Source: Pristiophorus japonicus (lineage: Eukaryota). From it: 64,000 nt of DNA. The DNA is taken from assembly GCF_044704955.1 (NCBI RefSeq), contig NC_091997.1:86118001-86182000 (forward strand), in the 5' to 3' direction. This document shows positions 33,823-46,990 of this stretch, piece after piece. How positions within the stretch are numbered: the first letter of the stretch is position 1; every line of letters starts with the position of its first letter. The notes beneath the pieces are model-generated. The model searched no databases and was not told the DNA's origin. It saw only the letters and a program-made list of their open reading frames with translations. A program made the position numbers and the translations under genes.

Positions 33823-34018
33823 GGAGGGAGGAGCATTGTTGCGCCAAATGCCCTGCAGTGACACTGAATTTTAGATACATCTTGGGAAGAAAATGTGAAC
33901 TTTAGAACTTGTAAAGTGGATAAAGTCAACCTAATGACGTTAGTGGTTCTAAAACTGAGCACCCTTCCTGACCTTTTTTACAGATTACTGTGGACATTAG
34001 GTACAACCGCAGCCGGAA

Positions 34019-34640
34019 ATGCATGAAAAGCGAAACATTCAGATAATAGGATGGGAGGACCTGGACAAAACAAAATTCTACTCGTTTGGTATCTTAATGA
34101 ATCTGTCGCTGCGCCTTGGGCTGTATCCAGCCATGCTGATCAGGACCAGGCTCCAGGTCCAAAAGGGGAAGAGTCATTATGAAGGCACTTATGACGCGTT
34201 GTTTAAAATCCTACGGACTGAGGGCATGCGGGGACTTTACAGAGGTTTTTCCGTGAATGTATTCACCATCGTCGCTAGCCAAGCGTATATCACAACCTAC
34301 GAGCTGGTGCGCACATATGTGTCCAACTACAGCGATAATAATGCCATTAAGTCATTTGTGGCAGGAGGTTTGTCGGCACTCATTGCACAGAGCTTCGCCG
34401 TGCCCATTGATAACGTTTCTCAGCACATGATGGTGGCGGGCCACAGAGCGAATATTGGCAGGTTCAAGCTGTATGAAATCACAAGATCGTACAGACAGGC
34501 GTTTGGACTAACGCGGGAAGTTATCTCTCAGATTTTCAGAAATGATGGCCCAGGGGGGTTTTACAGAGGATATTTAGCCTCCCTGATGACGTACATTCCC
34601 AACAGTGCATTGTGGTGGCCTTTTTATCATTTCTTTGCAG
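34019..34640 (+). CDS. SLC25A44: SLC25A44-like mitochondrial carrier, first coding exon (622 coding bp)
   Basis: MHEKRNIQIIGWEDLDKTKFYSFG...YPAMLIRTRLQ...PNSALWWPFYHFFA matches the SLC25A44 N-terminus and carrier repeats. Candidate acceptors precede 33984 or 34001; donor CAG|gtatgt; ends in phase 1. Confidence 0.93.
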
Positions 34641-34643
34641 GTA

Positions 34644-35183
34644 TGTAAGATTTAGGATCACAGGTCACACACAGATACCCAAAGGGTCTTAGGAGTTCTA
34701 CGGCATTTATTAAGAGAGCGATAGTTCAAATATCGTCAAACATAACACACAATCAGGATAGGCATAGTAGACATACGACCATGACAAGTAGCTGGTACTA
34801 GTCCCGATTGGACAGACGGCTGGTGGTAAGAACACTGCTTATCTTCACCGCCTGCCCTGAAATTCCTTCTAGGTCTCTCTTTTATTCTCTTTTTAGGGGT
34901 GGGCCTGGTATAGGATATGGACAGGACTATTTAACCTGTGATATGTCGGGTTTTTTGTCTGAACTCTTGGGTGGAAACCCTCCTCTTCACATCCTCCCGA
35001 GCTGGAGTCAGTCAGGCCATTCTTGGCCTTCAGATGTTTGGAACTGCCCGTGATCAGTTATTTATTTTAACGCTGTTCAAGCCGCTTTAGCTATTGTACC
35101 ACGGAATGAATCTTCAATTCTAACACCAGTCTGAGGAGACTTTTTGGTCTCAAGTTACTTCTTCCAATTCACAATTTATTACA
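34644..35183 (-). mobile_element. Solo LTR (540 bp) inserted at +4 of the SLC25A44 intron
   Basis: Termini TGTAA...TTACA, 4-bp TSD GGTA (34640-34643 and 35184-35187), minus-strand AATAAA at 34706-34711. Confidence 0.8.
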
Positions 35184-35241
35184 GGTATGGAAGGCTGCAG
35201 TTGTTCTCTCTCCTTCCTGAGCTCAGCTTTATAATAAATGT

Positions 35242-35385
35242 CGAAAATGCTGGAAATCTCAGCGGTTCAGGCAGCATTTGAACTCTGTTTCTCTCCACAG
35301 ATGCTGCCTGACCAGCCGAGATTTCCAGCATTTTCTGTTTTTATTTCAGATTCCAGCATCTGCAGTATTTTGCTTTTGTGTCTAG
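35242..35385. mobile_element. Short Penelope terminal-repeat insertion with inverted 5' part
   Basis: 35244-35280 is the reverse complement of 35298-35334; 9-bp TSD AATAAATGT (35233-35241 and 35386-35394). Confidence 0.75.
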
Positions 35386-36420
35386 AATAAATGTGTTGGA
35401 CATCAAATAATTTGGGAAGGGGAGAGGTTTCCAACCACTTGTACATGAAAACTTGGCATTACTCTTGTTCAGAATGAATTTAGCAAAATCTAGAATAACT
35501 CCCGCTCTTCAGCAGATTCTACTTCATTGGAAAATTTAGTTTCAAGACTGTGGCCACGTTCTCAAACTTTGTGCTTCCTTCAGGGTTGATTTATAATAGT
35601 GCTTAAAGCAGTTACATATTACAGCTATTTGGTAATCACAGTACAATAAATTATATAAAATGAAGGACATAGCTCATGTATAAAAAGTGTAACAGTAATG
35701 GTTACAAGTCGGTGTGTAACATGTGTAACGGTTACATGTCAGTGTGTAACAGTCACATATTGGTGTGTAACGGTCACACGCCGATGTCGCAGTAACGGTT
35801 AAATGGCAGTTCCTCTTGTGTAAGACGATAAGGAATTTTAGGAACAGGAAAAGGCCATTTTACATCAACTCCAGTTATCCAACTTTTAACTATCTTTCAA
35901 TCACTTCTCTTCCCGACATGCATCCAGTTATCTCAACATATTTAGCTTGTCTGCTACAATGGCTTTCTCTAGTAACTTACTCCACAGGTCCTGTTATCTT
36001 CCAGGTGCAAACGTTCTGCCTGGATTTTCTTCTTTCTTTTAAGGCTGCGTCTATTTGTACTAACTGAAATGCAGCTGTTTCTCTGATTGGCTCTCCATTT
36101 TCACATGACCTATTGCTGATTGGTCCCCATGGAGGATAAGCCGCACCCTGAAGTTCCTCTGGAATGTGTAACTGGAACCGCCCAACCCAAGTTCTGAGTA
36201 ACTTTCCAATTTATAATTCGATCCATTTTGACTTCAGAAGCCACAGAAGATAGATCTGCCCAAAAGCCACCAAGTTCCAGCCGAAGTCCATTACCCCAGT
36301 GCAAGTGCATCCCTTCGCCATCTGAAGACCCTTACCCCAGCATATACTGCCTTCCACAGCTGAAGTCCCTTACCCAAACGCAAGATCTTATCTCCCCCGC
36401 CCCATAGATGGGGCATTGTG

Positions 36421-37610
36421 CAAGCTCTCTCTCTCTCTCCCCACAAGCTCTCTCTCCCCCCCAAGCTCTCTCTCTCTCTCTCCCCCCAAGCTCTCTCTCT
36501 CTCTCTCCTCCCAAGCTCTCTCTCCCGCTAAGCTCTCGCTCTCTCCCCCCAAGCTCTCTCTATCCCCCCAAGCTCTCTCTCTCCCCCAAGCTCTCTCTCC
36601 CCCCAAGCTCTCTCCCTCTCTCTCCTCCCTCTCCTCCCAAGCTCTCCTGCTAAGTTCTCGCTTCTCCCCCCAAGCTCTCCCCCCAAGCTCTCTCTTCCCC
36701 CCCCCCAAGCTCCCTCTATCTCTCTCCCTCAGGCTCCCCCAAGCTCTCTTGCTCTTCCCCCCTCCCCAAGCTCTCCCCCCCTCCCCAAGCTCTCCCCACA
36801 AGCTCTCTCTCCCCCCCCAAGCTCTCCCCCCCCCAAGCTCTCTCTCTCCCCACAAGCTCTCTCTCCTCCCAAGCTCTCTCTCTCCCCCCCCAAGCTCTCT
36901 CTCTCTCCCCCCAAGCTCTCTCTCTCTCCCCAAGCTCTCTCTCTCCCCCCCAAGCTCTCTCCCCCCAAGCTCTCTCTCTCCCCCCAAGCTCTCTCTCTCT
37001 CTCTCTCCCCCAAGCTCTCTCTCTCTCTTTCTCCTCCCAAGCTCTCTCTCCCGCTAAGCTCTCGCTCTCTCCCCCCAAGCTCTCTCTATTCCCCCAAGCT
37101 CTCTCTCTCCCCCCAAGCTCTCTCTCTCTCTCCCCCAAGCTCTCTCTCTCTCTCTCCTCCCAAGCTCTCTCTCTCCCGCTAAGCTCTCGCTTCTCCCCCC
37201 AAGCTCTCCCCCCAAGCTCTCTTCCCCCCCCCCCCCCTAAGCTCCCTCTCTCTCTCTCCCTCAGGCTCCCCCAACCTCTCTCGCTCTCACCCCCCCCAAG
37301 CTCTCTCCCCAAGCTCTCGCTCTCTCCCCCCAAGTTCTCTCCCCCCAAAAGCGCGATCTCTCTCTCCCACAGGCGCGCTCTCTCTTTCTCCCCCCCCCCA
37401 AGCTCTCTCTCTCTTTCCCCCCCCCAGCGCTCGCTCTCTTCCCTAAACTCTCTCTCTCCCCCCCCCCCCCAGCTCTCTCTCCCCCCCCCTCTCTCTCCCC
37501 CCCAGCTCTCTCTCTCTCTCTCCCCCCAAGCTTGCGCTCTCTCCTCCCAAGCTTGCTCTCTCCCCGCTTCTCACTCTCCCCGTTGCCCCGGGCTCTCTTC
37601 CCCCCCAACA
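36421..37610. repeat. Degenerate CAAGCT(CT)nCn tandem repeat
   Basis: Dozens of caagctctctctcccc units; source of spurious ORFs. Confidence 0.92.
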
Positions 37611-38137
37611 AGCAGATGTTCGCGGCACTGCGGGTGGCTCAGAGGCAACGTGGTGTTGGATGCATGCGCAGAAAAGGGTTATTGAGAATTGGGTGGGGTG
37701 GGGGGGGTGGGTGAGGCGCCGAGTCGGCGATATTTGTCCTAACTCTCGCTTCTGCGCATGTGTCAGAAGGGAGTTTAGCTTCCGTATATTTTGCGTGCCT
37801 CCCTGATATTTGAACTATTTTTGCATGTCTTTAATAATTTCCAATTCTCCTACCTACTTGTTTTGAAATACTTGTGCTTATCCTGCTACTGTTCTCGCCC
37901 TATAATCTGTTTCAATGGCCAGAATTAAGTTGGACTATTTCACTACCATTCCTTAAATATTCTGCACTCTCTCACCTTGGGTCTTCCAGCCATTTTAGTG
38001 TTGCATCTAATCTTATCTTCATTCATTTTGTTCTCCCTGGAAGTCCAAAGGTTTTTGTATCACAATCCTTTTGCAAACCCTGATGAACATTTCAGTTCCA
38101 ATGATCCTCGATGCTTCCTCACATCTAATATACGCAC

Positions 38138-41100
38138 TGTTACATCTTGAATATAGAGTCAGACCAGATACTGAAAGCTCAAAGTAAGAGTGCCTCTCCA
38201 GCCTCCTTATATACAGGTGCTCCCAAGGGATTGTGGGATCCCTTGTGACTCCAGGGGATAAGCCTTCTGGTGGTTAGACATGGTAATTACAGGTTTACAT
38301 ACATAACAACACTCCTCCCACCCAAAGTCAATAGTGTAACTATTTACAATGTGAGTCGATCTGGGGCCTTCCTTTCCCTGGTTGATCGTCTCGGTGCGGT
38401 GCAAATGCTGGTGTTGGTGAGTCGTTTGTTGGGCCTTTGCTCGACTGCTGCTCAGCTGGCCTTGCTAGACTGCTGGGGATGGTGAGTCTTGCTGGGCAGC
38501 TGCGGGTGATGGGTTCTGTTTTGTGGTCAACCGCTGGGTTGGTTGCCACTGGTATGTGTGTTGGAGGGTCAAAAAAGGTAGAGTCCATTGTGGGTTGTTC
38601 TGGATAGTCTGTAAATCTGAGTTTGGTTTGATCCAAGTGTTTTCTGCAGGTGAGTCCATTTGCGAGTTTGACCACAAACACTCTACTCCCCTCTTTGGCC
38701 AAAACAGTGCCAGCAAGCCACTTGGGATCGTATCCATAGTTCAACACAAATACAGGATCATTTACTTCAATTTCACGTGACACATTTGCACGATCATGAT
38801 ATGTATTCTGTTGAAGCTGCCTGCTCTCTACCTGTTCATGTAGATCAGAGTGGACTAACGAGAGCCTTGTCTTAAGTGCCCTTTTCATGAGCAGTTCAGC
38901 GGGAGGGACCCCGGTGAGCGAGTGGGTCTTGTGCGGTAACTAAGCAGGACTCGGGATAAGCGAGTCTGCAGTGAGCCTTCAGTTACCCTTTTCAAGCTCT
39001 GCTTGAATGTTTGAACTGCTTGTTCTGCCTGACCGTTGGACGCTGGCTTAAAAGGGGCAGACATGACATGTTTGATCCCATTGCGGGTCATGAATTCCTT
39101 GAATTCGGCACTGGTAAAGCATGGCCCATTGTCACTTACAAGGACATCAGGCAGGCCGTGCATGGCAAACATGGCCCGTAGGCTTTCAATGGTGGCAGCG
39201 GATGTGCTTGCCGACATTATCACGCATTCAATCCATTTGGAGTATGCATCTACAACCACTAAAAACATTTTTCCCAAGAATGGGCCTGCATAGTCGACAT
39301 GAACCCGAGACCACGGTTTGGAGGGCCAAGACCATAAACTTAGTGGCGCCTCCCTGGATGCATTGCTTAACTGGGAACATGTATTACATTTGTGCACACA
39401 GGATTCTAAGTCTGCATCGATACCGGGCCATGTGGGATCTGGCTATTGCTTTCATCATTACAATGCCTGGGTGGGTACTGTGGAGATCACTAATGAAAGT
39501 GTCTCTGCCCTTTTTTGGCACAATTACCCGATTACCCCATCGGAAGCAGTCTGCCTGTATAGACATTTCATCTTTGCGCTGCTGGTACGGCTTTATTTCT
39601 TCCTGCATCTCTAATGGGACACTAGACCAACTCCCGTGAAGCACACAGTTTTTTTTACTAAGGACAGTCAGGGGTCCTGGTTCGTCCAGGTTCTAATCTG
39701 TCGGGCGGTAACAGGCGATTGCTCACTCTCGAATGCTTCCATTACCATAACTAAATCTACAGGCTGTGCCATTTCCACCCCAGTGGTGGGCAATAGTAGC
39801 CTACTGAGAGCATCGGCACAGTTTTCTGTGCCTGGCTTGTGGCGGATGGCGTAGTTGTATGCGGACAACATGAGCGCCCATCTCTGGATGCGGGCCGATG
39901 CACTCGTATTTATCCCCTTACTTTCAGAAAAGAGGGATATAAGTGGCTTATGGTTGGTTTCCAATTCAAATTTGAGCCCGAACAGATATTGATGCATTTT
40001 CTTTACCCTGTAAATACACGGTAATGCTTCTTTTTCGATCATATTGTAGGCCCTCACGGCTTTAGACAGACTTCTGGATGCATAAGCAACCGGTTGCAAT
40101 TTCCCAAATTCATTGGCTTGTGGCAATACACGCCCGCCCCCGTACGACGACGCATCACATGCTAGCACCAAACGTTTACATGGATCATACAACACAAGCA
40201 ATTTGTTTGAACATAACAGCTTCCTAGCTTTGTCAATGGCATTTTCTTGGCTTTTACCCCATACCCCATTCATCTCCCTTATGCAGTAAAGAATACAGGG
40301 GTACTAACAATATGCTAAGACCCGGTAAGAAGTTACCAAAATAGTTCAGGAGTCCTAGAAACGACCGCAGCTCCGTCACATTCTGTGGTCTCGGTGAGTT
40401 CTTGATTGCCTCCGTCTTCGAATCAGTGGGCCTGATGCTGTTCATTGCGATTCTTCTCCCCAGGAACTCCATTTCAGTCACCAGGAAAACGCACTTCGAG
40501 CATTTTAGCCTGAGCCCCACACGATTAAGCCGACTAAGAACCTCCTTCGGGTTCTGCAAGTGCTCGACGGTATCCCGACCTGTAACCAAGATGTCATCCT
40601 GGAAGACCACGGTGCACGGGACCGACTTCAGCAAACTTTTCATGTTCCTCTGGAATATCGCCGCGGCCGATCGAATCCCAAACGGGCATCTGTTGTAAAC
40701 AAAAAGACCTTTGTGCGTGTTGATGCAGGTGAGGCCTCTCAAGATTTCCTCCAGCTCCTGCGTCATGTAGGCCGAGGTCAAGTCCAGCTTTGTGAACGTT
40801 TTCCCTCCCGCCAGCGTCGCAAATAGGTCGTCTGCCTTTGGTAGCGGGTATTGATCCTGCAGCGAGAAACGATTGATAGTTACTTTGTAATCACCACAAT
40901 TCTGACGGTGCCGCCTCCCTTGAGGACTGGAATGATCAGACTGGCCCACTTAGTGAATTCGATCAGTGAAATGATTCCCTCTCGTTGCAGCCTGTCCAGC
41001 TCGATCTCCACCCTCTCATCATGTAAGGTACTGCTCTCACCTTGTGATGGATTGGTCGCACCCCCAGAATCAAATGGATCTGCACTTTTGCTCCTTGGAA

Positions 41101-42622
41101 CTTCTCGATGCCTGGTTTAAACAGCAAGGGAAACTTGCTTAGGACCTGGGCACGTGAGGTGTTGTCGATGGACGAAAGCGCTCGGACGTCATCCCAGTTC
41201 CAGCGTATCCTTCCCAGCCAGCTCCTGCCGAACAGCGTGGGGCCATCGCCCGGTACCACCCAGAGTGGTAAATCGTGCACCGCTCCATCGTAGGAGACCT
41301 TTACGGTAGCACTGCCAATTACGGGAATCAGTTCCTTTGTGTACATTCTAAGTTTGGTGCAAATGAGAGTCAGGACTGAAGCCTTGTTGCACCACAACTT
41401 ATCGAAAGTCTTTTTACCATTATTGACTGGCTTGTACCTGTGTCCAGCTCCATGGACCACATTTAATTCAACCTTCAGCATTATCGGGGTACACTTTGTG
41501 GTAAATGCGTGCACCTCATATACCTCTGCCTCCTCGGTCTGAGGCTCTGGTTCGTCATGACCCACCGTGGATCTGTCCTCCTCTGAAACATGGTGGTTTG
41601 CAGGGTTTGCAGCTCGCCTGCACATACGTTGGAGGTGTCCCATTGTTCCACAGCCCTTGCAAACGTATCCTTTGAAGCGGCATGAATGTAATCGATGATC
41701 ACCCCCGCAGCGCCAACAAGGTGTTAATTGCCTTGTATTCACCACCCTTGATGGCGGACTCTGAGTCACCTGTGTACATGCAGCTGCAGGCGTGTAAGTG
41801 CTGCCATGTACATATCGATTCGAAAACAATGTTACTTTGTTCACAGTAGTTGCAGCAGCACTAGTGTGCTGGGAAATTTGTTTAGTATTGTCACTGGTGG
41901 CAATAAAAGCCTGGGCTATCGCTATGGCTTTACTCAATGTTGGGGCCTTTACAGTCAAAAATGAAGTATTACCTCACGGCCAATGCCAAGTACAAAGAAG
42001 TCCCTGAGCATGTGCTCCAAGTGTCCATCAAATTCGCAATGTTCTGCAAGGCGCCTTAGCTCGGCGACGTAGCTCGCCACTTCCTGGCCTTCAGACCTCT
42101 CGCATGTGTAGAAACAGTACCTCGCCATCAGAACGTTTTCCTTCGGGTTTAGATGCTCCCGGATCAGTGTGCACAACTCATCGTCCAACTTGTCTGTGGG
42201 TTTTGCTGGAACGAGCAGGTTTTTCATGAGGCCAAATGTTGATGCCCCGCAAATGGTGAGGAGGATCGCCCTTCGTTTGGCAGTGTTCCCTCCTCCTTCT
42301 AGCTCGTTGGCCATGAAGTATTGGTCAAGCCGCTCCACGAAGATTTCCCAATCATCTCCCTCCGAAAATTTCTCCAGGTTGCCCACAGTTCTCTGCATAG
42401 TTGCAGTGGGGTTCGGCGCCAGTTGTTACGTCTTGAATAAAGAGTCAGACTAGATACTGCAAGCTCAAAGTAAGTGTGACCGTAGTCCTTTATTACAGAT
42501 CTCAGAGTGCCTCTCCAGCCTTATATCCAGGTGCTCCCAAGGGATTGTGGGATCCCTTGGGACTCCAAGGGATAAGCCCTCTGGTGGTTAGACATGGTAA
42601 TTACAGGTTTACATACCTAACA
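38138..42622 (-). mobile_element. Full-length degenerate Ty3/Gypsy (Mag-like) LTR retrotransposon
   Basis: LTRs 42424-42622 (5') and 38138-38308 (3', internally deleted); TSD CGCAC; PBS TGGCGCCGAA at 42421-42412; gag MQRTVGNLEKF, CWRCGGDH knuckle, RT VVFQDD, RNase H CDASSYG, integrase HVDYAGPF/SDNG; frameshifted. Confidence 0.95.
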
Positions 42623-43461
42623 CGCACCATATCTGGATTATTCATAGAGTCGATGCAGAAAGTCACAGAGTACAAACATGAGTCGGGAAACGATCCAACT
42701 CCAACTCTACAAATGACTGTTTGGAAATAAAAAAGGCTTCTCTTTGGGGGAAAAAAACTGCAGGCGATAACAAACCATAAAGAGTCTCACGATTAATAAT
42801 CCTACTTTGTAACTGATTAATTTTTGAAAGGAGTCCTACTGGTAAAACGCTTTAGCTGGAAATTGGGTTGAAGGTTATTTAAGGCGTTAATGTCGGGCGA
42901 TCGCTAAATTTAGCGCCGGAAAATGGGTTGCGACGGCAGCCAAAAAATTAAGTGGAGCAGAGTGCTAAGTGATGCGTTCCACACCTGTCTCGGGGCGCTA
43001 GGCCAGGTGAGCAACTGAATATCCGTTGCTAAAGAGCCGGCTTCATAGAGCCCAAAGAGAAGCTTCCCTGCCAAAAAAAGAATCGGAACAAAAAACATTA
43101 CTCGCCCCAAATAAAGTTAAATTGCAAAAAAAAATGGATCCTACTTACTTCACGCAGTTATTCCTTCCATTAGCGCCCCAGGACAGCTCTGACCGGCAGG
43201 CTTTCTCTGGCGGGGTCACTACGGGGCGCTACAAGTGCAGCGCAAACCAAATGTTGGTTCCATGTTGATACCGGGGGCGTTGCACACCGGCGCTACGCTC
43301 CTCAGTGCCGCTGGTGCCGGCACACTGTAGTTACCGAGTAGAGCGAATGCCGGCGGTCACGTCTGCTCACCCTTTAGCGACCTATTACAATGTACAAAAT
43401 CACAGAGGGAAAACTATTGTGTGTTTGAGATACTAGAGTGGGATAGCTGAGTGGAGAATAA

Positions 43462-43935
43462 TAACATAAGAAATAGGAGCAGGAGTAGGCCATTCAGTCC
43501 CTCGGGCCTGCTCCGCCATTCAATAAGATCATGGCTGGTCTAATCATGGACTCAGCTCCACTTCCCCGCCCACTCCCCAGAACCCCTTATCCCCTTATCG
43601 CTCAAAAATCTGTCTATCTCCGCTTTAAATACATTCAATGACCCTCCACAGCTCTCTGGGGCAGAGAATTCCACAGATTTACAACCCTCAAAGAAATTCC
43701 TCCTCATCTCAGTTTTAAATGGGCAGCCCCTTATTCTGAGACTATGTCCCCTAGTTTTAGTTTCCCCTATGAGTGGAAATATACTCTCTGCATCCACCTT
43801 GTCGAGCCCCCTCATTATCTTAAATGTTTCGATAAGATCACCTCTCATTCTTCTGAACTCCAATGTGTATGGGCCCAACCTACTCAACCTATCCTCATAA
43901 GTCAACCCCCTTATCTCCAGAATCAACCTAGTGAT
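43462..43935 (-). mobile_element. CR1 3' fragment
   Basis: LEFRRMRGDLIETFKIM..TRGHSLR and tail. Confidence 0.88.
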
Positions 43936-43989
43936 CTTCTGATTGTGTGCATCTAACCATTGATGCCTGTTTATTTGTCTGAATTACAG

Positions 43990-44117
43990 AGCAGTTGTTC
44001 TATTGGGCTCCTGGTGACTGCCCTCATTTGGTCCTTCAAGGAATGGCCGCACCACTGGCTGCAGCCACAGCATCTACAATCACCAACCCGATGGATGTTG
44101 TCAGGGCTAGGGTTCAG
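43990..44117 (+). CDS. SLC25A44: SLC25A44-like second coding exon (128 bp; not in ORF track)
   Basis: ttacag|AG CAG TTG... encodes (E)QLFYWAPGDCPHLVLQGMAAPLAAATASTITNPMDVVRARVQ with carrier motif PMDVVR. Donor CAG|gtgagg; phase 1/0 links the flanking exons in frame. Confidence 0.94.
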
Positions 44118-44312
44118 GTGAGGATACTTTAAAAAAAAAATTCTCGGCATATCGGTGCCGCTAGCAAGTCCAGCATTTATTGCCCATTCCTTTTTGCCCA
44201 TGAGAAGTAGTGAGTAACCTTCGTGAACCACTGCAGACCGTAGGGTGGAGGTACCAGAGGGGGTTCCAGGATTTTGACTCATCGGTGGAATTGTGGAATT
44301 GACGTGTGTGTG

Positions 44313-44903
44313 TGTGGCAGGAGAAAAATCAGTGATGAGCAATCAGAAGCAGGAGCTCTGGTCGGTTCCCTTTCTCCCGCTAGCCCAGACACCAGCTCTA
44401 GGATCGCCACTGCCGCAGTTAGATTTGGCTAACAGCACAGGCAGGAACTGAATCTGGGACCTTACCTTCCGACCTGTGTGACTCAGTATGATGCTGTGGT
44501 TGACCTTGGATTTTGTATTGTAAAAGTAAAAGGAATGGATAAAATCTCATTTAAGCATTGCTTCCATTTTTATCAGGATTCAGACTTCAATAACTCGGAA
44601 CCAAGAGAAGGAAAGAAGTAATTTAGAAGTTTGACCAATGATACTTGTATTAATTGGGATTGGAATTCCTGTTTCTAAACACATCAACAGCCACCTGCAG
44701 CTCCGTGTGGCTCTATGGCTGAATGGGCTGTACAGTGTCATTCTGAGTCACACAGGTCGGAAGGTCAGGTCCCAGATTCAGTTCCTGTCCTGTGCTGTTA
44801 GCCAAATCTAACTGCGGCAGTGGCGATCCTAGAGCTGGTGCCTGGGCTAGAGGGAGAAAGGGAACTGACCAGAGCTCCTGCTTCTGATTTTTCTCCCGCC
44901 ACA
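44313..44903. repeat. Inverted repeat of a SINE fragment (arms 44313-44497 and 44732-44903)
   Basis: Arms are reverse complements with about 8 differences in the 157-bp core by eye. Confidence 0.9.
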
Positions 44904-45706
44904 AACTCCGATCCCTAGCCACTGACTCCATCCCTCTCCCTAGCATCTGTCTGAGACTGCACCAAACTGTTCACAACCTAGGCGTCATATTCCACCCTGA
45001 AATGAGCTTCCGGCCACATATCCGTGGCATAACTAAAACCGCCTATTTCCACATCAATAACATCGCCCGCCTCTGCCCCTGCCTCAGCTCATCTGCTGCT
45101 GTACCCTCACCTATGCCTTTGTTATTTCTAGACTTGACTACTCCAATGCATTCCTGGCTGGCCTCCCATATTCTACCCTACATAAGCTTGAGGTCATCCA
45201 AAACTCAGCAGCCCATGTCCTGACTCGCACCAAGTCCCGCTCACCCATCACCCCCTGTGCTCGCTGACCTACATTGGCTCCCAGTTAAGCAAGGCCTCGA
45301 TTTCAAAATTCTCATCCTTGTTTACAAGTCCCTCCATGGCCTTGGCCCTCCCTATCTCCGTAATCTCTTTCAGCCTGACAACCCCACGAGATGTCTGCAT
45401 TCCTCAAATTCTGCCCTCTTGAGCATCCCTGATCATAACTGCTCAACCATCGGTGGCCGTGCCTTCAGCTGCCAGGACTCTAAGCTCTGGAACTCCCTCC
45501 CTAAACCTCTCCACCTCGCTACCTCTCTTTCCTCCTTTAAGACGCCCCTTAAAACCTACCTCTCATCTGCCGTAATTTCTTCTTTTTTGGCTCGGTGTCA
45601 AATTTATTAGTTTTGTTTTCTAACACCGCTGTGAAGCTCCTTGGGACATTTTACTACGATAAAGGCGCTATATAAATAAAAGTTGTTGTTGTTGTTGTTG
45701 TTGTTG
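44895..45706 (+). mobile_element. L2 LINE 3' fragment
   Basis: LADLHWLPVKQ..FKIL, LWNSLP, (GTT)n tail. Confidence 0.88.
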
Positions 45707-46798
45707 AAAGTAGCTAGTCGAAGAGTCACATTTGGCTGAAACAGGCTCCATGGTTGAATAGCCTGCCGGCGTGTAGAATGGCTCCGTGGCCGAGGTACTT
45801 GAGATCCACTCTCATCCATTCGCTCATACCGAGGCACCTGTCACTACCGCGAGAAAATGTCAGGCGAAACATTATCGAATGGGAGAGGGGTAATGAGCAC
45901 TGTTTAATCAGTGTTCACAGAACTTAAAACTGCTTTTATATATTTATCCAATGTTCGGGCCCAGTATTGGTGATCTCGCTCCCGGCATTTTAGATGTTTA
46001 TCTCATCATCATAGGCCATTGACACAACTATTATTCAGCAAGATTTAGTAAACCTTCGTGTTTAGGCAGGGGATTTGCCAAATGACTTTAAACATAGGAC
46101 AATCTACAGATTACAATTAAGTATAAACTGAAGACATTTGACGACAAGAATCCGAGCAGGATTTGAAAGATTTAAAAATGTCATGGCACAACCATTACGA
46201 GGGACTGCCTAATACTTTACTATACAACCATTGTGCAATTAGTAAAAGGCGCACGATCATAAGAAATTTATTGCAAGGAATTAGTGCAGAGAGATAATGC
46301 AATCTGCTTGAACAGCAGACCTTAAACATCCACTCCCTCCACCATCATTGCACTGTGGCTGTAGTATGTACTAGCAAAGTGGTTAATTAGGGCAGATACC
46401 ATTTAACCATTGGTATGTTTCTCTCTTTATCTTAAATAAGCTCTCCATAATTTGTGGAGAGAGTAGCATTGAGAGCCAAGTGATGAACACAATCTCACAG
46501 TAATCTAAATGGATGCTCCACTTGCAGAGCAATGCCTAACCTTTAGGGAAACCTATTGAGCAGGACAAGTAACAGCAGGTTAATATTAAGGGAAAACACA
46601 GGAAAGAATTTGTTAAATATTATTGGAGAGATATCTAAATCCAAATATGATGAACCAAACAAACTATGGGGTGGGAAGGAGATGTGGTAATGAGTAGAGA
46701 ACGAGATCAGGACACAGCCGCCCAAGTCTATTAGGAACACCCTGGATTTCCCCCGAGTGCAGTAATTGGCTTGGTTCCATTCATGTTTTGTGTTTCAG

Positions 46799-46990
46799 GT
46801 GGGGGTGAAGTCCTCGATGATTGAAACGTTCCGGCAGCTTCTGAGAGAAGAGGGTGCCGGGGGCTTGACCAAGGGGCTGTCTGCCCGCATCTTATCCACA
46901 GCTCCAGCGTCTCTCGTCTTAGTGCTGTGTTATGAAACACTCAAGAGGATCAGTCTGAGGCCAGAACGAGTGGAATCTCGACACTGCTAG
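46799..46990 (+). CDS. SLC25A44: SLC25A44-like terminal coding exon
   Basis: tgtgtttcag|GTG... encodes VGVKSSMIETFRQLLREEGAGGLTKGLSARILSTAPASLVLVLCYETLKRISLRPERVESRHC-stop. Total CDS 622+128+192=942 bp, 313 aa, no frameshift. Confidence 0.94.
   Translation: MGVKSSMIETFRQLLREEGAGGLTKGLSARILSTAPASLVLVLCYETLKRISLRPERVESRHC

What the first reader, a model, noticed from the sequence alone, without database searches (positions are those of the whole stretch)
34640..35190. Solo LTR inserted inside the SLC25A44 splice donor, rebuilding and duplicating it
Seen: a 540-bp element (34644-35183) with TGTAA...TTACA termini is flanked by a 4-bp duplication GGTA that spans the exon/intron boundary. Removing it gives the pre-insertion donor GCAG|GTATGG. 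The LTR's own TG replaces intron positions +4/+5, so the exon now ends in CAG|GTATGT, and a second donor CAG|GTATGG appears at 35184/35185. Use of the distal donor would include the in-frame TAA at 34646-34648. Inference: the insertion survived because it regenerated the donor, and it created a possible poison alternative 5' splice site. The LTR poly(A) signal points along the minus strand, antisense to SLC25A44. Established: 4-bp TSDs are typical of class I ERVs and some Gypsy lineages.
Basis: partly seen in the sequence, partly recalled or inferred. Interest (0 to 1): 0.7.

Follow-up and report, generated by a model that had tools for sequence, protein, structure and literature searches.

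The report
Solo LTR copies a splice donor
An old 540-base retroelement remnant sits three bases into an intron of a sawshark mitochondrial-carrier gene and leaves a splice signal at each of its ends; the assembled transcripts seen use only the first signal, which likely matches the ancestral one, so this is likely a lucky, tolerated insertion rather than a new regulatory switch.

Summary
The anatomy is real. 34644-35183 is a solo LTR of a high-copy family with shared termini and different 4-bp TSDs. PBS and PPT of paired copies put it antisense. All 3 other organisms laid lack exactly 544 bases here. Two corrections. (1) Joint geometry indicates the relatives read CAG|GTATGTAAG, so the LTR start (TGTAAG) likely restores the ancestral donor through +9 and the distal GTATGG is the changed, weaker copy (U1 pairing -9.9 vs -7.7). 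(2) The gene is the fast-evolving SLC25A44a/-like paralog; a second copy lies elsewhere. One spliced-contig run joins 34640 to 43990 (depth 40) and also skips exon 2 (depth 13). No contig joins 35184 to 43990. That is weak, because contigs drop rare and NMD-degraded forms. No target-site preference (15 of 247). One change among 9 distal donor bases is what neutrality predicts. Verdict: tolerated insertion with an idle duplicate donor; poison splicing unsupported, not excluded. The scan noted a similar donor-abutting retrotransposon elsewhere in this genome (e1-9962447).

The parts
33984..34640 (+). Exon 2 of SLC25A44a/-like (ATG 34019), 657 nt
   Evidence: contig of run X5 covers 33983-34640 and runs on into exon 3; PF00153; three-exon translation equals P0001
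34640..34643 (+). Left TSD GGTA (exon -1, intron +1..+3)
34638..34649 (+). Proximal, used donor CAG|GTATGTAAG; +4..+9 come from the LTR
   Evidence: junction 34640-43990; U1 duplex -9.9; relatives' joint
34644..35183 (-). Solo LTR, 540 bp, antisense to the gene
   Evidence: absent in 3 of 3 other organisms laid
34646..34648 (+). In-frame TAA reached if the proximal donor is bypassed
34706..34711 (-). AATAAA, likely the LTR poly(A) signal
   Evidence: kept in 28 of 29 copies
34875..34896 (+). Pyrimidine tract + TAG in the antisense LTR: candidate cryptic acceptor that could pair with the distal donor (288-nt cassette, stop after 5 codons)
   Evidence: prediction only, no transcript seen
35184..35187 (+). 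Right TSD GGTA
35182..35193 (+). Distal duplicate donor CAG|GTATGGAAG (CA from the LTR end; +6 G)
   Evidence: U1 duplex -7.7; no junction
43990..44117 (+). Exon 3
   Evidence: 3 contigs of X5
46799..46990 (+). Coding part of exon 4

Best explanation
This is an old solo LTR of a high-copy, non-coding LTR-retroelement family, inserted antisense after intron base +3 of the SLC25A44a/-like gene; the transcripts seen splice at the first donor, and the insertion likely survived because its first bases likely restored the ancestral donor, leaving a second donor that is likely idle. Shown: the 4-bp TSD copies exon -1 and intron +1..+3 to the far side; the LTR's TGTAAG supplies +4..+9 on the left and its terminal CA supplies -3/-2 on the right; the proximal donor is joined to exon 3. 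Inferred: a two-LTR element inserted and collapsed to a solo LTR by recombination; the ancestral donor was GTATGTAAG; the distal +6 T>G arose afterwards by drift; the site was hit by chance and kept by selection's filter; the second SLC25A44 gene lowered any cost.
For: Family and TSDs. Orientation by PBS/PPT. Empty site: single contigs of X6 and X8 skip 544 bases (34646>35191, 3 letters fit both sides) and X14 goes 34649 > 39 letters like 35194-35232 > 35386. Proximal junction at depth 40.4; its contig runs 29 letters into exon 3, so no path ending in AG or CAG converges there in that graph. Intact 313-aa ORF equal to P0001. No CA-NNNN-TG targeting: 15 of 247 LTR ends are followed by NNNN-TG against 7.5% background. 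The window is the only genome match to AGGTR + this LTR start. P(at least 1 neutral change in 9 donor bases) about 0.4 at half the LTR's divergence. Second paralog and long branch 0.49. Fixed elements near donors are mostly antisense (PMC3088655, passages).
Against: RNA evidence is 1 run of unknown tissue and kind, as contigs; 2 sister runs laid nothing on exon 3. A distal-donor mRNA would be an NMD target and easily lost. The same run shows exon-2 skipping at depth 13.4 vs 40.4, which the LTR might cause. +6 T in relatives is read from joint geometry, not from a listed base (211 rows not shown). B, C and D share many differences from the window and may be one clade, so the direction of the T/G change is not fixed. 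The distal donor still has 8 of 11 U1 pairs.
Confidence: 0.78

Rival explanations
1. The insertion is a mild splicing mutation: the LTR or the competing donor weakens definition of the 657-nt exon 2 and causes the exon 1 > exon 3 skip, which removes the ATG and two thirds of the carrier.
For: 58-nt contig joins an upstream exon to 43990 at depth 13.4 vs 40.4; that exon maps once in the genome, in a CpG island, followed by GTGAGG. LTR insertions at or near donors cause skipping in mouse, e.g. T-Wis (PMC6466679, passages). The gene has a long branch.
Against: The donor looks identical to the ancestral one through +9. Exon-2 inclusion also varies in human SLC25A44 (PMC11702838, passages; whether its exon 2 is the same exon was not checked). 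A large internal exon between long introns is skip-prone anyway (own knowledge). Contig depth is a poor measure of isoform share.
Confidence: 0.12
2. The distal donor, alone or with the LTR's cryptic acceptor at 34896, is used to make a poison isoform that tunes carrier level through NMD.
For: CAG|GTATGG keeps 8 of 11 U1 pairs; in-frame TAA 536 nt upstream of the junction; 19 of 20 pyrimidines before TAG 34896.
Against: 0 of 3 contigs at exon 3 begin in the LTR; the distal donor is the weaker and the changed one; the acceptor TAG is a family trait (27 of 29 copies), not a local gain; no conservation signal.
Confidence: 0.08
3. The element's integrase prefers targets that resemble its own joined ends (CA-NNNN-TG), which steers it into CAG|GTATG donors.
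For: The two junctions match at 11 of 12 bases, and the empty site likely reads TGTAAG after the cut, the same six bases as the LTR start.
Against: 15 of 247 ends are followed by NNNN-TG; 11.5-17.8 expected depending on how many ends are set aside. One donor-like context genome-wide for the pattern tried.
Confidence: 0.02

Closest known systems
Fixed antisense LTRs in the under-representation zone beside splice donors (Zhang, Romanish, Mager 2011, PMC3088655; seen: 12 passages)
   Same: Fixed intronic LTR very close to an exon, antisense, on the donor side, the tolerated class.
   Different: Here the element lies inside the donor motif and supplies +4..+9 itself; shark, not mammal.
Transposon insertion into AGGT duplicating splice sites (Yenerall and Zhou 2012 review, PMC3443670; seen: 6 passages; authors recalled)
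   Same: A target-site duplication copies splice-site bases to both sides of the element.
   Different: That model makes a new intron (donor + acceptor) in an exon. Here GGTA is copied at an existing donor and gives donor + donor; no intron is gained.
Mouse T-Wis: antisense ETn in the splice donor of exon 7 (table row in PMC6466679; seen: passages)
   Same: LTR element inserted antisense into a donor; exon skipping among the transcripts.
   Different: A full element and a mutant allele with 8 aberrant transcripts; here a solo LTR with the normal junction dominant and the ORF intact.
Solitary LTRs of ERVs and non-autonomous LTR elements (PMC6466679, passages)
   Same: One LTR with TSD; siblings have two LTRs, PBS, PPT and about 2 kb of non-coding interior.
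   Different: Undescribed-looking shark family; class not settled.

Membership tests
Solo LTR | Dispersed copies with the same TG...CA termini | tested here: met
   25 of 29 copies start TGT, 26 of 29 end ACA
Solo LTR | Short TSD differing between loci | tested here: met
   11 of 21 loci without PBS/PPT flank have an exact 4-bp TSD; pair L026/L030 shares one
Solo LTR | Same sequence as paired LTRs with PBS and PPT elsewhere | tested here: met
   47 exact LTR-end+PBS matches. PBS matches the 3' end of a tRNA-Leu gene (1 of 5 loci called, anticodon TAG)
Solo LTR | Empty site in relatives | tested here: met
Ty3/Gypsy LTR retrotransposon | Gypsy-type gag/pol | tested here: inconclusive
   No Pfam family in 12 of 12 interior frames of 4 copies, none relevant in 6 frames of 2 sister copies; the RT remnant hit no retrotransposon RT in PDB
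Class I (gamma/epsilon-like) ERV | Gamma/epsilon-like pol, env | tested here: inconclusive
   No such hit; all 5 PDB hits are foamy-type Pol chains (foamy identity of these entries recalled)
Spuma-related / class III ERV-like | RT closest to foamy viruses | tested here: inconclusive
   62-aa remnant in a sister family sharing U5, PBS and interior segments, best E 0.002; 0 of 12 closest loci extend to the catalytic motif within 1.5 kb
Poison alternative 5' splice site | Distal donor used in vivo | tested here: inconclusive
   0 of 3 contigs at exon 3 in 1 informative run of 3; contigs show presence, not absence
Poison alternative 5' splice site | PTC more than 50 nt upstream of a junction | tested here: met
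   536 nt; rule recalled
Poison alternative 5' splice site | NMD-dependent accumulation; conservation of the site | not testable with these tools
   needs treated RNA and other sawshark genomes
Intron gain by AGGT duplication | Element spliced out as a new intron using TSD-made donor and acceptor | tested here: not met
   the transcript joins 34640 to 43990, the conserved intron

The most novel reading that the evidence does not exclude
Any TGT...ACA element with a 4-bp TSD that lands after GTR in a donor makes two working donors in one step. Here the second donor or the LTR itself drives an unproductive isoform (the roughly one-in-four exon-2 skip, or an NMD-hidden distal form) that turns down one of two SLC25A44 paralogs in the sawshark lineage. 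That would be a one-step route from retroelement insertion to splicing-based dosage control, recurring in large shark genomes.
Probability: 0.12. Interest if true: 0.55.

Novelty: new member of a known kind. Interest (0 to 1): 0.24.

Why it matters
As it stands it is a clean example of how LTR ends plus a 4-bp TSD let an insertion survive inside a splice donor, a place normally cleared of such elements. A rough count expects several such cases per large genome (0.09 for this family, 3-17 for 100,000-500,000 insertions, assuming 200,000 donors). It would matter more if the exon-2 skip or a hidden distal isoform depended on the LTR, since that would show a single insertion creating regulated unproductive splicing.

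Tried and rejected
No RNA holder was listed as such; X5 is taken as RNA because its contigs join exons at GT-AG borders. X17 and X18 laid nothing on exon 3: no information. X5 pieces on the LTR are paralogs with many other letters: not evidence of read-through. Target-site preference: rejected. Coding partner of the family: not found among 10 paired copies, 30 PBS loci, 10 sister loci and 12 RT loci; long ORFs there look like nested CR1 or Gypsy insertions (by motif, recalled). Lokiretrovirus assignment: PMC7947760 and PMC8922424 (passages) give no PBS or TSD to test; supplements not looked at. Exon 1 is not in the window; it lies on unplaced contig C1156. ESM Atlas gave no answer. No absolute age is given, as no shark rate was retrieved. 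Literature for a donor regenerated by an LTR end: 0 papers; 6 listings, none on this by title and abstract start; a limited library, so no proof of absence. Searches found no earlier scan note by sequence or words.

Full report
1. Observation. Exon 2 ends at G34640. GGTA stands at 34640-34643 and 35184-35187 around a 540-bp element starting TGTAA and ending TTACA. The left junction reads CAG|GTATGTAAG, the right CAG|GTATGGAAG, 11 of 12 bases alike. TAA 34646-34648 is in frame.

2. It is a solo LTR. A genome search gave 2535 candidates; of 40 scored, the 39 others are 86-90% identical. Among 30 loci fetched, 4 are flanked by a PBS, 5 by a PPT and 21 by neither; 11 of the 21 have exact 4-bp TSDs of different letters, 3 have one mismatch, 6 two, 1 three; none has an exact 5- or 6-bp duplication. 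Paired copies have about 2 kb between the LTRs, or more where other repeats are nested. PBS and PPT lie on the minus strand relative to the window, and AATAAA at 34706-34711 on that strand is kept in 28 of 29 copies, so the LTR is antisense to the gene. The PBS matches a tRNA-Leu 3' end (1 of 5 loci called). K2P distance from the window LTR to 29 copies is 0.093-0.129, and between LTRs of 7 paired copies 0.062-0.164, the two highest from partial alignments: an old burst.

3. Class. The interior is non-coding (0 families in 12 frames). A sister family shares the U5 end, the PBS and interior segments and keeps the first 60-odd residues of an RT. Its only PDB hits are 5 Pol chains, best E 0.002, which I recall as foamy-virus structures. 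This leans to a spuma-related ERV-like family over Gypsy or class I ERV, but weakly: none of the 12 closest loci extends to the catalytic motif.

4. Empty site. Three other organisms were laid. In X6 and X8 one contig runs from exon 2 across a joint 34646>35191 that skips 544 bases (LTR + TSD) and on to 35610-35647. In X14 one contig runs to 34649, then 39 letters like 35194-35232, then 35386 on. The joint sits after GTATGT with only AAG fitting both sides. With G at +6 it would sit further left with CAGGTATG fitting both sides. So the relatives likely read GTATGTAAG, and the LTR start restores this through +9. The base itself was among 211 rows not shown, so this is inferred. The three share many differences from the window (about 87% identity over exon 2 and flank) and may be one clade.

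5. Host gene. The three-exon translation (34019-34640, 43990-44117, 46799-46990; 313 aa) equals P0001, labelled SLC25A44-like of Pristiophorus japonicus. A second SLC25A44 lies on contig C32, 63% identical. In a tree of 23 rows (22 of the 120 listed hits plus that paralog, first 215 aa), the paralog groups with frog SLC25A44 (97/96); the window gene sits among the other sharks' 44a/-like proteins without starred support and has a long branch, 0.49.

6. Splicing. No run was listed as RNA, but X5 (same organism, other sample) has contigs joined at exon borders. At exon 3 it gives 3 contigs: exon 2 joined at 34640 (depth 40.4), exon 3-4 (41.2), and a 58-nt contig joining another exon to 43990 (13.4). 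That exon occurs once in the genome, on contig C1156, in a CpG island, followed by GTGAGG: likely exon 1, so exon 2 is sometimes skipped. No contig joins the LTR end to exon 3. The exon-2 contig reaches 29 letters into exon 3, as expected if only a path sharing one G converges there; a distal path ending CAG would have cut it at 27. Against over-reading: one run, unknown tissue, contigs drop rare forms, a distal mRNA would be an NMD target, and X17 and X18 laid nothing. U1 pairing with a recalled 11-nt motif gives -9.9 (proximal), -7.7 (distal) and -11.6 (intron 3 donor) kcal/mol.

7. Chance or targeting. 15 of 247 exact LTR ends are followed by NNNN-TG, against 7.5% TG background; some of the 247 are PPT-flanked or chance matches (32 control hits), and no adjustment tried makes it significant. 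The window is the only match to AGGTR + LTR start. Assuming 200,000 donors, one hit at this register is expected 0.09 times for this family and 3-17 times for 100,000-500,000 insertions. The extra AAG match beyond TGT is an unexplained coincidence of order 1 in 50. One change among 9 distal donor bases has neutral probability about 0.4, so neither selection against nor for that donor is visible.

8. Mechanism. Shown: TSD and LTR ends give two donors; the first is used; the ORF is intact. Inferred: a two-LTR element inserted after +3, recombined to a solo LTR, was tolerated because the donor was restored and the element is antisense, and the second donor drifted. Rivals: the LTR promotes exon-2 skipping (0.12); a poison distal donor or cassette (0.08); end-like targeting (0.02).

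9. Known systems. Fixed LTRs near exons are depleted, less so at donors, and mostly antisense (PMC3088655, passages). TSD duplication of splice sites is the AGGT intron-gain model (PMC3443670, passages), whose defining new intron is not present here. An ETn in a donor with skipping is mouse T-Wis (PMC6466679, passages). Human SLC25A44 exon-2 inclusion varies (PMC11702838, passages; exon identity unchecked). Searches found no paper on an LTR end regenerating a donor; supplements were not read. An unreviewed scan note describes a similar case in this genome (e1-9962447), not checked here.

10. Verdict. Real, neatly explained and most likely harmless: a new member of a known kind, interest 0.24.

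Noticed in passing
window 33984-34640; G000:C1156:37193-37221: Exon-2 skipping: a contig joins the likely exon 1 directly to exon 3 at depth 13.4 vs 40.4; it removes the ATG and 207 of 313 codons.
   Followed up: partly
G000:C1156 (L063): The likely exon 1 and CpG island of this gene lie on an unplaced contig, not upstream in the window; the gene is probably split by the assembly.
   Followed up: partly
window 34019-46990; L066 (G000:C32): Two SLC25A44 genes; the window copy is only 63-73% identical to its counterparts in other cartilaginous fishes and has a long branch, suggesting relaxed or shifted selection.
   Followed up: partly
window 34415: The window has G (Val133); run X5 of the same organism and all 3 relatives have A (Ile): an allele or an assembly error.
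   Followed up: no
window 35233-35385: A very high-copy short repeat absent in the 3 relatives lies 49 bp after the distal donor, with plus-strand AATAAA at 35233 and 35386, possibly its own TSD and a possible intronic poly(A) signal.
   Followed up: no
window 34645-34650: A second GT at +5 (TAT|GTAAGA) forms a tandem donor 4 nt downstream, weak by U1 pairing (-4.3); likely present in the relatives too.
   Followed up: partly
L102-L111, L112-L123: Sister LTR family with a Leu PBS and a truncated RT remnant weakly like foamy-virus Pol; deleted at the same point in the copies examined; no complete pol seen.
   Followed up: partly
G000:C8:174.39-174.55 Mb: A tandem array with a period of about 1763 bp carrying a tRNA-Leu-type 3' end; 472 forward matches genome-wide, many here.
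   Followed up: no
window 36326-37700 and 38343-42425: Intron 2 also holds a CT-rich minisatellite and a degraded minus-strand Gypsy-type element (type by recalled motifs).
   Followed up: no
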